Shown piece after piece: positions 21,027-51,059 of a DNA stretch of 64,000 nucleotides (its first letter is position 1; every line of letters starts with the position of its first letter). The notes beneath the pieces are model-generated. The model was given only the letters and a program-made list of their open reading frames with translations. It ran no database searches and was not told where the DNA came from. The translations under genes and the position numbers were made by a program. The DNA is from Eledone cirrhosa (taxonomy: Eukaryota): assembly GCA_964016885.1 (NCBI GenBank), contig OZ024744.1, positions 123,504,001-123,568,000 of the forward strand, given 5' to 3'.

Positions 21027-21146
21027 CTAGATGGTAGGGGGTGGGGGTGATAGTGGTGGTGGTGGTGACATTATCGAAAGTGATATTGGTTAATAGAGGT
21101 ATGCGAGAGTGTGTGTTTTCGTGTGCACGAGTATAAGTGGGTCTGT

Positions 21147-24100
21147 CACTCTGTCGACAGAGGTAGACGTGTATTAACGAGCTCTGTGTTTTACATTGGT
21201 TTTACCTTGTAAAGAGTGAGATTTGGGATTTATTTTTCTATTGTGATATAATTTAACCCATCGTTATGGCCTGCAGACGTTGGGGTTATTATTATTTCCG
21301 CTCCTTTTTGGGGTGAAAGTTTTCTTCTTACAATTTTGTGAACTCAGCTTGTAGTAATGGACGGCATTAATACAAGTGATGGTCCCACACTCCCCAAAGA
21401 AAAAATATCTTCGAGGAAAAATGAAAGCACAAAGTGCCCAGCTTCCCCCTTCCCTTAACGAAAAACATTAATAAGGAACAACAGACAACAACCGAAAAGA
21501 CAAAAATTGGAAATAATACCAGCAACGGAAAAATTATCGATACCAATACGAACACCAAAGTGAACAGCGACAACAACAACAATGACAAGAAAAACAACGA
21601 CAACAAAATTTCCTTTGCGGAAACTGTAAAAAAAAACCAACGCAAAGCAAAAGTTGGAAGAAGCAAAAAGGTATGTGACTTTCGAACCCGATGGTTCATT
21701 CAGCATTAATTCCCCAGAAGAAATAAAAAGAGAAATTGCCACGAGCACGGTGGTGTTCAGGACAATCTCGAATGCTACAAAAAAACCAGTACAACTGTCT
21801 CAGAGTGAGATAGAGCTGGTTTTAAGGAACCAAATGGAAAGCATTTTGTTCATTCAAAAAGGAAAACTCTTCGGTAGCATCTCGGTTCTTATGAAGGATC
21901 AAGAAACGGCGCAAAAACATTCTATTGCGCCCATTGTATCCACCCACTTCACCTTTTCCCCATCTTAGATGGGAAGAGGGTTTTCCAAAATTAAAATTCA
22001 ACTGCATAAGACCCAAAGTAGACAGTTGGTGGCTACTTTGTGGCGTTTTAGACCTTGACCAAGACATTATAATCTCAGGTGGAAAGTCCCCCAGAGAGGT
22101 CTTTAGTGGGACCAGCGTAGAACTTCTGGTGCAAATGAGCCTGGAAAGGATAGCGAAGATCCCACAGAGAATTCATTTAGATGGAGGGACCTACATAAAT
22201 ATTTCAGTTGAGGGTAGGCGACCCGCGTGTTACCACTGCGCAAGCAGAGGTCACTTGAGGGCTGCATGCCCTCAACTGATAAAAAAGAAACCATTATTAC
22301 AAACGTGGATTGGCAGTATCGGTAGAGGGTCGGACGTCATGCTTTCCAGCATAGTTACGTCTCTTTACAATCTGAGTTCAAATGCCGCCGAGGTTGACTT
22401 TGCCTTTCATCCATACGGGGTCGATAAAATAAAGTACCAGTAATACACTGGGATAATTTCTGGCCTTGTGCCTTAAGTAGAAATAATTATTACAAACACC
22501 ACCAACACCACCACAACCACCACAACAACAACATCCCAAGAAATCAACCCAAAATACGATCCCACCCAGCCCCTCCCCTCAGAACACAAATACAAAAACA
22601 CACGCAGTGCAAACACAACCTGGCAATATACCCCTCCTCTCCAATACGGAAGAGGAGCTCATATCCTCGGAAGACGAGGAGGCTCCCTTCCAAAAAGTCA
22701 AAAGAAAAAATGTACACACACCACACAAACAAAAATAACCCACCTGACAACACAACACATACAACAAAACGCAAGCACACCCAAGAACAACAAACAAAAA
22801 CAATCACAACAACACAAAAACTCTACACATACATAAACAAAAACAATAAAAACTTAGTAGACAAAATAAACAATATCCCTTGGTGAAGGCGAAGCTTTTA
22901 GGCTGGTCACCGTTTACGCCCCTTTTGGGGCAATGCGGTCGGACTTCTTCCATCGTCTGGAGACTTTTCTAGGGATGTGCCGCTCCTTGATTAGAGTAGT
23001 TTCAATAGGAGTTAGTAAGGAGTTAGCCTCAGATAGAAATAGGAAGGAAAAGGAGTTGGTAGTTAATGTTGAAGAGGCAATTAGAAGCGGCAACGTGGCC
23101 AGAGTGCAAGCGTCGAAAACGGCCTTGAGCCAGTTCTTCGCCGCGAAACACGAAGGCTGCGTTGTCCGAAACAAAATACGTGCTCTGGGAAACGAGGGGA
23201 CCAAAGCTGTTAGCTGGGCCCGCGTGATACAAGCCAAAAGTGGGATTAGATCCATTATCCGCTCTTTGCGAGACCAGGATGGACGGGTGATCCTTGAACC
23301 TAAGCAAATGTGCGAGGCCTTTCAAAGGCACTTTTCCCGATTGTTCGGGAGGGACGGGGGCCGGTTGGGGATGTGGTTTTCGGTCCATACCTCGACGGCC
23401 TGCCGCGTCTTTCGGACGAGGAGGCGAGGTCCTGCGACAGGCCGATCTCATAGGGGACGTGCTAAACCTATGCGGCAAACGCATATCTCCAGGCCTCGAT
23501 GGTCTGCCCTACGAACTATATATAATATGCCGGACTTGTTCCCCGATCTCCTCGAGGCGGTCTACTGCAACTGGCAACAGAACGGGAGAATTCCCTGTTC
23601 TGTGACCAAGGGCGTAGTCTCGTTAGTGAGGAAGGACGAGAACAAGGGGGATGACATTAGTAATTTTAGGCCCATAACTCTGCTGAACCCAGAGTTAAAG
23701 ATTTTGGCCAAGGTGTTAGCGAAGAGGCTGGCGCTTGTCGTGGGGGGCCTGGTGGGAGATGCGCAGACATGCACTATCCCGTCCAGGTCCATCCACGACA
23801 ACCTCCACCTCATGCGATACATCATAGAGAGGGTTGGGAACAAACCCGGCTTTGGTGGGACCCTGATCAATTTAGATCAGTCTAAAGCTTTCGATAGGGT
23901 GGACCATGGTTACCTGGATGCGGTGCTAGCGGCGGCTGGTTTCGGACCCGTTTTCAGGGGCTGGATCACTGCCATGCATAACAGCCGCATCTGCTCTAGA
24001 GTCAAGGTGAACGGCTACCTCTCGGAGCCGTTCTAAATCACCCGTTCCATCCGACAAGGATGCCCTCTCTGCTCCCTTCTGTAAATATTGGCTCTCGAGC

Positions 24101-25784
24101 CACTACTGCGGAAGTTGGAGTTGTTGCAGGGCATCCCTTTGGAACCGGGATTGCTCAAAGAAGTGTCAGCCTACGCCGATGACGTAACAGTAATGGTGTC
24201 GACCACCTCGGAATTCGGGGCAATCGGCACCTTACTGGAGGAGTACGAAAGATTGACAGGGGCTAAGCTGAACCGGGACAAGTCAGTCGCTTTGCAACTC
24301 GGCGAGTGGAAGGGCAAACCGATGTCGTCCGACGGTATCGTCGGAAGGTTGACGGAGGGCCCGATGAAGTTGCTTGGGGTCTGGTTCGGACCGGACCTCC
24401 AGGTGGGGAAAAACTGGGGTGAGGTTACCAATAGGGTGTTTGCACTGACCCGGAGTGGGGCGAGTGCAAACTATCCCTGAAAGGTCGGGCGGAGGTGGCG
24501 AACGCTTACATAGCGTCCGTCAACTATTACCGCTTGACTGTCGTGCCTTGCCGAGTGAGATCCTCACCAAAATGGAGCGCGCTCTCTTCTAATTCCTTTG
24601 GAAGAAGAGGGCTCCTCTGGTGAGGAGATCCATCTGCTGTCAACACCCTTTGAAAGGAGGGCTGGGGATGCCGTGGCTAAAAATGCGTAAACACGCATTG
24701 AGGCTACGACACCTTCAGGTATTCCTCACCGGTCAACCGGTGTGGGCCCCGTTTGTGAGGCGAGCCTTTCCGAGGCTCATCTCGCTCACCGCCGAGCTGC
24801 AGTCCTGGGTGAAGCAAAGACCGAGAAAACTGGGCGACTGGCACACCGAGTGTGCCCAGGCGCTCACGGGCAAGCGGACCCGGCTATCGGTGGAGACTCC
24901 ACCTCCTCATTCTATAGAGGGCTAGTGGTTAGCAAGAGCAACGACGCCCTCGGAGAAACCGTAGGCATGGAGGAGGACGAACAGGCCAGCCTCTTCGGCA
25001 GGACTTTCGGCACGGGACCTATGGACAACTTCCAGAAGTCCTTGGCCTGGCAGTGTTACCGAGGGGCTCTGCCCGTTCGGGATAAGCTCTACAGACACGG
25101 GCGCCCGGGTAGGGACCCCTCGAAAAAGATCTGTCCCAGTGTACCAATGCGTGCGCGACGAGGAAACCGTCGCGCACGCATTGATACACTGCCCCGGCGT
25201 TGCCGATCTGTGGGGCTATGTAGAACAACTGCTGTCACGGGTGGGACCAATCAGGTTGACCACCGAGTCCATTGTAACGATCAAGCCACCTCCCCCCTTC
25301 TAAAATGAACGAGAGGCGGTCTTCTTCTGTGTAATAGCCATGGTAAAAGAGGTTGTATGGTGGACGCGTCTAAAAGGGCTGAGGTCGGACACCTTTCTTT
25401 CCGGCCAACAACTAGTCCTTTTCTTCCGATACCATTTCGGAAGAAGGATCAGGATGGAGAGAGAGGTGCTCCACTCCAGCCAGTTTTATGAAGGTGGGTG
25501 AAAGTTGCGAGAATGGCCCGTGTGAATGGGCCTTCTCTCTACCTCAGCCTGTAGGTGGAAAAGGATGAAGGAAGAAGGCAGCACCCTCTCTTTGTGCTCC
25601 CGTGAAGAGTCGCACATTTTTTTTCGGGGGTGCGTGTGACCCCAAAACGATCCCTCACTATTGAGGACCTTTTTGTTATAATTTTATTTGTTATTACATT
25701 TTTTTTACTCGATTTCTATGTAACCCCCCCCCCCCCCATGTATGTGTCCCTTTCTTTTGTGCCCTCGTGGCAAATAAACAAAAA
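21147..25784 (+). mobile_element. Tx1/L1-clade LINE copy 1 (subfamily A), with internal deletions of the ORF1 end and endonuclease, plus a SINE insertion
   Basis: ORF1 CX2CX4HX4C knuckle (CYHCASRGHLRAAC); RT motifs LDQSKAFDRV and AYADDV; AATAAA followed by (TGTC)n. Deletion junctions at ~22881 and ~22989. Confidence 0.93.
22305..22485 (+). mobile_element. tRNA-derived SINE inserted in ORF1
   Basis: A-box-like TGGCAGTATCGG, B-box GAGTTCAAATGCC, 12-bp TSD ATTATTACAAAC; absent from copy 2. Confidence 0.9.
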
Positions 25785-50045: not shown

Positions 50046-50123
50046 CTATCTATCTATCTATCTATCTATCTATCTATCTATCTATCTATCTATCTATCTA
50101 TCTATCTATCTATCTATCTATCT

Positions 50124-50686
50124 AACTGCTGTCGCGTATGGGACAAATACAGTTGACTGCCGAGTCCATAGTAAGGATCAAACCGCCAGACTCTTTCAAA
50201 AACGAAAGAGAGGCGGTTTTCCTCTGTACGGTGGCTATGGTGAAAGAAGTTATATGGTGGACGAGGTTGAGAGGACTGAGGACAGATGCCTTTCTCTCCG
50301 GACAACAATTGATTCCCTTCTTTAAGTATCACTTTAGAAGGAGAATCAGGGTGGAGAGAGAGGCACTGCACCCCAGTAAATTTACTGAAAGGTGGGTGAA
50401 TGAAGCGAAAATGGCCCGAGTGATTGGGCCTTCTCTGTTTATAAGCCTGTAGGTTGAGGAAGAGAGCAAAAGGAAGAAAGGAGCACTTGCACAACACGCT
50501 CCTTGAGTTGAGGGTTGTTCTATCGACGGGGTATTAAACAACCCATTTGTGGCGCCTCCCCCCTATTGGGGATTTCGATTGTTGAAATTGTTTGTTTTTA
50601 TATTTTTTACACGACTGTATGTAAAATCCCCGGCATGTCTTTGTATTGTCCCCTTTCTTGTTGCGCCCTTGTGGCTAATAAAGAAA
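50124..50686 (+). mobile_element. Tx1 5'-truncated copy 8 (another subfamily) embedded in (TATC)n
   Basis: ...EVIWWTRLRG...VIGPSLFISL*, AATAAA; (TATC)n on both sides. Confidence 0.92.
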
Positions 50687-51059
50687 TCTATCTATCTATC
50701 TATCTATCTATCTATCTATCTATCTATCTATCTATCTATCTATCTATGTATAAGATCCCGTTAAGGGTGTAAGCAGCGATTCTTTGCTTAAACTTTAATA
50801 TGTATGTACATATATATATATATATGTTTCGAAAATATTCTTACATATATATATATCAATAATGTTAACAACTGGAAACTATCTTTATAAAACCATATTT
50901 ATTCTATTATATATATTACAAAGGTACCAACATTTTTGGTACGCTCTCATCAGATAAAATACAAAAGTTGTTTTATAGACAGTGACATATTCAAAAACAA
51001 GAACTTATCGCCATTCCATCGCACAATATCTTGGTCAGCCTATAGGTTGACCAAGATTT

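What the first reader, a model, noticed from the sequence alone, without database searches (positions are those of the whole stretch)
21141..50747. Microsatellite-targeted LINE family piling up head-to-tail in (TATC)n/(TGTC)n
Seen: eight copies from several subfamilies, all on the + strand. Every 3' end runs into TATC/TGTC repeats rather than poly(A). The randomly 5'-truncated copies (32451, 36341, 42653, 49787, 50124) are also preceded by (TATC)n, so the repeat looks like the target and not just a tail. Established: some Tx1-clade elements are sequence-specific, e.g. Kibi (TC)n and Koshi (TTC)n. Inference: this is a strand-specific GATA/GACA-repeat-targeting lineage that regenerates its own target, building a >20-kb array.
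Basis: partly seen in the sequence, partly recalled or inferred. Interest (0 to 1): 0.7.

Follow-up and report, generated by a model that had tools for sequence, protein, structure and literature searches.

The report
LINEs stacking inside TATC microsatellites
Eight copies of a jumping gene lie in one orientation with TATC (or TGTC) repeats at their joints, likely because each insertion cuts a pre-existing repeat and leaves it on both sides; repeat-seeking elements are known, but distant relatives hint that the element's own RNA end may help choose the target.

Summary
Observation confirmed, with corrections. Eight + strand copies of an L1/Tx1-type LINE (about five subfamilies, probably octopod) end in AATAAA plus TATC/TGTC repeats and have no poly(A). 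All five 5'-truncated copies are preceded by TATC-type repeats, two with no copy upstream. A rare motif shows that copies 3-5 split one compound microsatellite, and copy 5 has a 26-bp direct repeat at both ends. Reads from other loci show the same joints. The repeat is therefore a target, not only a tail.

Corrections: the '>20-kb array' is an 11.7-kb TATC stack plus a 10.3-kb TGTC dimer, with a separate pair 5.8 kb downstream. Copies 1 and 2 share three disabling lesions, so GACA targeting rests on one event. Tx1 membership could not be tested.

This is a new target word for a known kind (Kibi, Koshi, crocodilian Tx1). The scan already found this family elsewhere in this genome. New here: distant relatives stack head-to-tail without microsatellites, carrying unrelated junction words beside near-identical endonucleases, so the RNA end may help set the target.

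The parts
21141..21146 (+). GTCTGT, the only repeat remnant 5' of copy 1; also present right of copy 2 (possible short target duplication, or an element-borne 5' end)
21147..25782 (+). copy 1: starts at the full-length 5' end, decayed; two internal deletions and an unrelated ~190-bp repeat inserted at 22305-22494; 96.7% identical to copy 2, with shared lesions
25783..25797 (+). joint c1/c2 with a short (TGTC)n run
25798..31365 (+). copy 2: full-length, TGTC-flanked; ORF1 with a CCHC knuckle, ORF2 endonuclease-RT broken by stops and frameshifts
31366..31424 (+). (TGTC)n then (TGGC)n repeat right of copy 2
32282..32451 (+). compound TATC/TGTC microsatellite with three TCTAGCTGTATATC motifs and non-LINE DNA further 5': left half of the split target
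32453..36329 (+). copy 3: 5'-truncated at the end of ORF1; ORF2 with a 957-aa open stretch 33194-36067 (RVT_1, zf-RVT)
36330..36340 (+). ATATCTATCTA joint c3/c4; a 12-bp direct repeat with the right side of c4
36341..36710 (+). copy 4: 370-bp 3' fragment of the young c4/c6/c7 subfamily
36711..36826 (+). (TATC)27 ending in TAGCTGT; 36801-36826 is the left copy of the 26-bp direct repeat around copy 5
36827..42616 (+). copy 5: full-length; ORF1 in pieces with a CCHC knuckle at about 38008-38049; ORF2 from 38987 (Exo_endo_phos, RVT_1, zf-RVT), interrupted
42617..42653 (+). right copy of the 26-bp direct repeat (42617-42642), continuing into the fourth TCTAGCTGTATATC motif
42654..43872 (+). copy 6: 1.2-kb 3' fragment
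43873..43935 (+). degenerate TATC repeat, right end of the main stack
49753..49786 (+). (CTAT)8 with non-LINE DNA further 5', preceding truncated copy 7
49787..50045 (+). copy 7: truncated at both ends; stops at an internal CCCCTAT that runs into (CTAT)n
50046..50123 (+). (CTAT)20 joint c7/c8
50124..50685 (+). copy 8: 562-bp 3' fragment of the most diverged subfamily (67-76% to the others)
50686..50747 (+). (ATCT)15 right of copy 8

Best explanation
These are L1/Tx1-type LINE copies lying in one orientation inside TATC microsatellites, where the element's endonuclease likely nicks the GATA strand, its RNA likely ends a few repeat units past AATAAA and would pair with the nicked strand to prime copying, and a short duplication likely leaves repeat on both sides for later copies. 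Shown by sequence: domain content, polarity, absence of poly(A), repeat 5' of the truncated copies, one compound microsatellite split by c3-c5, and a 26-bp direct repeat around c5. Inferred: the nick, the RNA end, pairing, the order of insertions, and slippage re-expanding short remnants. c1/c2 is best read as one insertion in a TGTC variant of the repeat, later duplicated or copied as a defective element.
For: (1) 5 of 5 truncated copies are preceded by TATC-type DNA; c3 and c7 have no copy upstream to supply a tail. (2) TCTAGCTGTATATC occurs 4 times in 64 kb: three times left of c3 and once right of c5. (3) The exact 26-bp direct repeat around c5 includes a non-repeat marker; c4 has a 12-bp one. 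(4) In RAD reads of the species label that best holds this DNA, a ~42-bp 3' fragment is preceded by ..TCCATCTATCTATC (32 reads), and two tail-to-internal joints run through TATC units (tables 5 and 5c). (5) 3' ends elsewhere continue into mixed TATC-type repeats: 241+41 of 392 laid reads in X14, 182+62 of 322 in X16, and one contig of organism B. (6) Pfam finds an APE endonuclease, RT and zf-RVT; the best solved relative is L1 ORF2 (E 3e-44, against 1e-19 for R2). (7) Precedents: endonuclease-led microsatellite targeting (PMC4494074, PMC3812793), RNA-target annealing (PMC6795142), tandems by double insertion (PMC5932611).
Against: No free (TATC)n of 10 bp or more lies in the window, which a tail model also predicts. 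The c5 duplication is partly ambiguous, because all three full-length copies are preceded by CTGT. c6 shows no exact duplication longer than 4 bp. The RAD rows may be single loci, are biased by restriction sites, and come mostly from other subfamilies; one 5-read row is not TATC and 57 rows were hidden. Relatives at 42-43% identity stack without microsatellites, and their junction words do not track the endonuclease.
Confidence: 0.6

Rival explanations
1. RNA-programmed target. The endonuclease is relaxed. The RNA ends 12-20 nt past AATAAA in flank captured from its donor site, and only nicks that pair with this end are used. TATC is a captured word that happens to be abundant, so the target can change without any change in the protein.
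For: In distant arrays, 8 sub-lineages with endonucleases 90-96% identical (hairpin loop identical in 7 of 8) have 8 unrelated junction words. None of 46 AATAAA ends listed has poly(A) or a microsatellite. 4 of 4 array 3' ends at unique DNA keep 11-18 nt of the word, and one contig has the 18-mer at both array ends. In the window, c2 (TGTC) and c5 (TATC) share the loop WTWTNHSGQSRSYL, and c7 ends at an internal CTAT. PMC1950540 (passages) says nicking specificity alone does not explain L1 integration sites.
Against: The distant junction words could be plain target duplications spread by unequal exchange, as in the R1 array (PMC5932611), or fast-evolving 5' ends: 3 of 5 array 5' ends lack the word. 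TATC use persists across subfamilies only 67-88% identical, which suits a protein-fixed preference. Those relatives are only 36-42% identical to c5 in the endonuclease.
Confidence: 0.25
2. Element-made tail. The repeat is added or encoded at the 3' end, as in RTE/CR1-type LINEs. The stack forms because new copies land in older copies' tails or the RT jumps between RNAs.
For: Every TATC run of 10 bp or more in the window touches a copy. The ATATCTATC start of the repeat is shared by c3, c4 and c6. c1's left flank holds only 6 bp of repeat.
Against: c3 and c7 are preceded by repeat with no upstream copy. The compound repeat left of c3 and its motif right of c5 predate the insertions. The 3' continuations in reads are heterogeneous (agreement 0.64-0.65). 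The stacked copies belong to different subfamilies.
Confidence: 0.1
3. The stack is mostly local duplication or an assembly artefact, not repeated insertion.
For: c1 and c2 share two stops and a 7-nt frameshift, and their private changes are even across codon positions (9/9/9 and 10/6/10). For this pair duplication is the likely reading.
Against: c3-c8 differ by 2-33% and have different 5' breakpoints. Similar joints occur in independent reads.
Confidence: 0.05

Closest known systems
Kibi (TC)n and Koshi (TTC)n Tx1 elements of teleosts; crocodilian Tx1 families on (TTCC)n/(TTTC)n (PMC4494074 passages and section 15; PMC3812793 passages)
   Same: APE-type LINE of the L1/Tx1 group placed in a short tandem repeat
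   Different: The target word is TATC (a TGTC variant once). The host is probably an octopod. Several subfamilies are stacked in one repeat. Kinship to Kibi and Koshi was not tested.
Waldo (ACAY)n, Mino (AC)n and Dong (TAA)n microsatellite-targeting elements (PMC3812793 passage)
   Same: Active insertion into microsatellites; Waldo also uses a 4-nt unit with a variable base
   Different: Different target words; clade assignments (R1, R4) are recalled, not from a call
R1 tandem array and non-LTR tandems by double insertion in Drosophila (PMC5932611 passages)
   Same: [quoted passage not shown]
   Different: The R1 target is an rDNA site with 33-nt duplications; here it is a microsatellite and the stack mixes subfamilies
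R2Ol read-through RNA annealing to its target (PMC6795142 passages)
   Same: Target sequence at the RNA 3' end improves priming and accuracy; poly(A) harms it
   Different: R2 has a restriction-like endonuclease (recalled); pairing is only inferred here

Membership tests
L1/Tx1-group APE-type LINE | ORF2 with N-terminal APE endonuclease, RT and C-terminal cysteine-rich domain | tested here: met
   Exo_endo_phos E 2e-9, RVT_1 E 4e-26, zf-RVT E 3e-5; endonuclease matches L1-EN structures
L1/Tx1-group APE-type LINE | separate ORF1 upstream, with a nucleic-acid-binding motif | tested here: met
   ORF1 in pieces with a C-x2-C-x4-H-x4-C knuckle in c2 and c5; no Pfam hit
L1/Tx1-group APE-type LINE | RT closer to L1 than to other solved non-LTR RTs | tested here: met
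   L1 ORF2 E 3e-44, R2 1e-19; only L1 and R2 appear among the matches
L1/Tx1-group APE-type LINE | 5' truncation and target-site duplication | tested here: met
   5 of 8 truncated; 26-bp repeat around c5, 12-bp around c4; none longer than 4 bp for c6
Tx1 clade | RT groups with named Tx1 elements (Tx1L, Keno, Kibi, Koshi) in a tree | not testable with these tools
   No named Tx1 sequence; the tree has no named reference; Repbase and Dfam are not held
Tx1 clade, target-specific family | one sequence type in more than 20% of flanks (criterion in PMC4494074) | tested here: inconclusive
   Met in the window (8 of 8 3' sides) and in biased RAD reads; no genome-wide count
Kibi/Koshi/crocodilian microsatellite group | target (TC)n, (TTC)n, (TTCC)n or (TTTC)n | tested here: not met
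   The target is TATC/TGTC
LINE with a self-made microsatellite tail (RTE/CR1 type) | repeat only at the 3' end, unique 5' flanks | tested here: not met
   5 of 5 truncated copies have repeat at the 5' side
R1-type tandem array | same-origin copies separated by one duplicated target | tested here: inconclusive
   Fits c1/c2 only; c3-c8 are mixed subfamilies
Endonuclease-determined site-specific LINE | purified endonuclease nicks the target specifically | not testable with these tools
   Needs an in vitro assay

The most novel reading that the evidence does not exclude
This LINE lineage programs its own target with RNA. Transcripts end just past AATAAA in captured flank, carry no poly(A), and pair with matching DNA. 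Capture of TATC turned one branch into a microsatellite specialist, while other branches with near-identical endonucleases propagate unrelated 12-18-nt words and stack on themselves. It would be a natural, reprogrammable APE-type retrotransposon.
Probability: 0.25. Interest if true: 0.75.

Novelty: new member of a known kind. Interest (0 to 1): 0.42.

Why it matters
It adds TATC/GATA to the list of LINE target repeats and explains polarised LINE piles and split GATA microsatellites in a probable octopod genome, where L1-Tx1 families are reported as recently active (PMC13282606: 13 families, 421 insertions in Octopus vulgaris). How APE-type LINEs choose microsatellites is described as not well understood (PMC3812793). 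Close subfamilies in TATC and TGTC, and relatives with unrelated junction words, give direct material for separating endonuclease recognition from RNA pairing. If the RNA end dominates, the element would be a candidate for RNA-directed insertion.

Tried and rejected
- No host genome is held, so no genome-wide flank table was possible.
- A DNA pattern in viral contigs found 0. The C-terminal alignment in metagenomes found 0 of 183 candidates. The mid-ORF2 alignment gave one weak short hit each in viral and metagenome contigs (L001, L002); neither showed a LINE match, so both were rejected.
- No RNA holder was listed; this is no evidence on expression.
- One search was dominated by subfamily divergence: 4287 loose ends and 358 joints were not shown.
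- could not show whether the c1/c2 subfamily uses TGTC elsewhere: 5 difference rows were hidden, three of them G>A by the tally. One 594-bp contig aligns through the TGTC run to 25787, but its letters were not shown.
- Summed contig depths were not converted to copy numbers.
- Searches for a named Tx1 reference failed.
- The endonuclease hairpin loop was rejected as the cause of TGTC versus TATC, since it is identical in c2 and c5.
- 5' joints are all compatible with a TCTA| phase, but microhomology makes most of them ambiguous, so this is not counted as evidence.
- A look-up of earlier notes by c2's 5' sequence found nothing.
- No structure or complex prediction was run; it would not separate the rivals.
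Full report
Observation. Self-comparison and alignment confirm eight LINE copies, all on the + strand, between 21147 and 50685. They fall into about five subfamilies: c1/c2 (96.7% identical), c3, c5, c4/c6/c7 (96.7-97.6%) and c8, with 67-88% identity between groups. c1, c2 and c5 start at a homologous 5' end, CA(C)TCTGT, each preceded by CTGT. The other five are 5'-truncated at different points. Seven copies end in AATAAA, 3-7 nt, then the repeat, without poly(A). c7 stops about 124 nt early at an internal CCCCTAT and runs into (CTAT)n. 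All 11 TATC runs of at least 10 bp in the window touch a copy on the + strand, and there is no GATA run of that length. The block is not one array. 32282-43935 (11.7 kb) is a continuous TATC stack of c3-c6. 21141-31424 is a TGTC-flanked dimer, separated from the stack by 0.86 kb of other DNA. c7/c8 lie 5.8 kb further on.

What it is. ORF2 carries an APE endonuclease, RT and zf-RVT. Its best solved relative is L1 ORF2 (E 3e-44; R2 1e-19), and the endonuclease matches L1-EN. ORF1 has a CCHC knuckle. None of the long copies has intact frames. The best named homologue is from Argonauta hians (66%). In a tree of 31 rows the window copies form a 100/99 clade inside a 100/100 clade with that protein, so the host is probably an octopod. 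No named Tx1 sequence was returned, so clade membership is open.

Target or tail. Four lines of evidence favour a pre-existing target. First, 5 of 5 truncated copies are preceded by TATC-type DNA, and c3 and c7 have no upstream copy. Second, the motif TCTAGCTGTATATC occurs 4 times in 64 kb, three left of c3 and one right of c5, so one compound microsatellite was split by c3-c5. Third, c5 is flanked by an exact 26-bp direct repeat (36801-36826 and 42617-42642) that includes non-repeat letters, and c4 by a 12-bp one. c6 has none longer than 4 bp, and the last 4 letters of c5's repeat could be element-borne. Fourth, RAD reads under the species label that best holds this DNA (X1 holds 58% of the words) show the same pattern at other loci: a ~42-bp 3' fragment preceded by TATC units (32 reads), and joints 43888 to 41339 and 43880 to 41331 that join a 3' end through TATC units to an internal point. 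3' ends continue into mixed TATC-type repeats in 241+41 of 392 laid reads (X14), 182+62 of 322 (X16) and one contig of organism B. One 5-read row did not, and 57 rows were hidden. These reads are biased by restriction sites, come mostly from other subfamilies, and single rows may be single loci. They do not replace a genome-wide count, which was impossible.

c1 and c2 share two stop codons and a 7-nt frameshift, and their private changes are even across codon positions. They therefore descend from one defective copy, by tandem duplication or by copying in trans. c2 is sister to TATC-using c3 (98/92) and has the same predicted hairpin loop as TATC-using c5; that loop is a specificity determinant in L1-EN (PMC1950540, passages). 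TGTC units also occur inside the compound TATC repeat at 32282 and in the read consensus. A tolerated variant of one target is the simpler reading.

Distant relatives. A scan of genome contigs returned 38 loci, all from animal-like contigs filed in one MAG labelled Arenicella sp.. These relatives are 42-43% identical over ORF2, mostly intact, and form head-to-tail arrays. At 46 AATAAA ends listed there is neither poly(A) nor a microsatellite, but a sub-lineage-specific word of about 12-18 nt. 4 of 4 array 3' ends at unique DNA keep 11-18 nt of the word. 2 of 5 array 5' ends carry it, and one contig has the 18-mer at both ends. Eight sub-lineages with endonucleases 90-96% identical have eight unrelated words. 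So poly(A)-less ends and stacking also occur in relatives that lack the microsatellite. The words may be captured flank carried by the RNA, or ordinary duplications spread by unequal exchange.

Mechanism. Most likely (0.6) is target-primed reverse transcription in which the endonuclease nicks the GATA strand, the RNA ends a few units into the donor's repeat and pairs with the nick, and a 10-26-bp duplication leaves repeat on both sides. The asymmetric repeat fixes polarity, and slippage would re-expand remnants. Polarity, joints, duplication and the split repeat are shown; nicking, RNA ends and pairing are inferred. Rivals: an RNA-programmed target with a relaxed endonuclease (0.25), an element-made tail (0.1), and duplication or artefact for the whole stack (0.05).

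Comparison with what is known. Microsatellite-targeting Tx1 families are described on (TC)n, (TTC)n, (TTCC)n and (TTTC)n (PMC4494074: passages and section 15; its supplements were unreadable, and its figure of targets was not seen). Waldo, Mino and Dong targets are listed in PMC3812793 (passages). Tandems by double insertion and the R1 array are in PMC5932611 (passages). RNA-target annealing for R2Ol is in PMC6795142 (passages). PMC13282606, PMC8967140, PMC5753468 and PMC9115989 were read as passages only: the first two list L1-Tx1 in cephalopods without targets, the third mentions crocodilian sequence-specific Tx1, and the fourth has no Tx1 match. Kojima and Fujiwara 2004 was not read. Searches listed no paper on a TATC/GATA-targeting Tx1-like LINE; Repbase, Dfam and subscription journals were not searchable. 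Earlier notes of this scan report the same family, and an (ATT)n sister group, on other DNA of this genome. They are unchecked leads, not support.

Verdict. The feature is real. It is a new member of a known kind, with a target word I did not find in print. Interest is 0.42. The open and testable question is whether the protein or the RNA end chooses the target.

Noticed in passing
L003-L058 (G001; contigs CAXXMW01 of a MAG labelled uncultured Arenicella sp.): About 17 animal-like contigs full of intact L1/Tx1-type LINEs in head-to-tail arrays (period about 6.4-6.8 kb) are filed in a bacterial MAG, likely host contamination. They end in AATAAA plus a sub-lineage-specific 12-18-nt word, with no poly(A).
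   Followed up: partly
window 34-21026 and 63334-63937: A 48-bp satellite in long blocks, interrupted by other elements. One block (19860-21026) is inverted and ends about 115 bp before copy 1.
   Followed up: no
window 2200-6060 and 14330-15700: Gypsy-like LTR element pieces (aspartyl protease, RVT_3, integrase) inside the satellite, with 16-bp tandem units near both ends.
   Followed up: no
   Followed up: no
window 46136-46483 (-): A short, very Arg/Lys-rich open frame (about 83 aa from its Met) in the gap between copies 6 and 7; possibly a basic nuclear protein exon, or chance.
   Followed up: no
window 22305-22494: A common short dispersed repeat inserted into ORF1 of copy 1; related copies lie at 44100-44194 and 51059-51226, the last as an inverted pair.
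   Followed up: partly
window 47411-48110 (+): A 207-aa open frame with CxC and RPDG motifs that resembles the C-terminal nuclease region of another retroelement (resemblance recalled); no Pfam hit.
   Followed up: no
window 31661-31963 (+): A C2H2-like zinc finger ending (C-x2-C...H-x3-H) followed by (ATGT)16 at 32023-32085: probably the 3' end of an RTE-type LINE with its own tail, lying in the c2-c3 gap.
   Followed up: no
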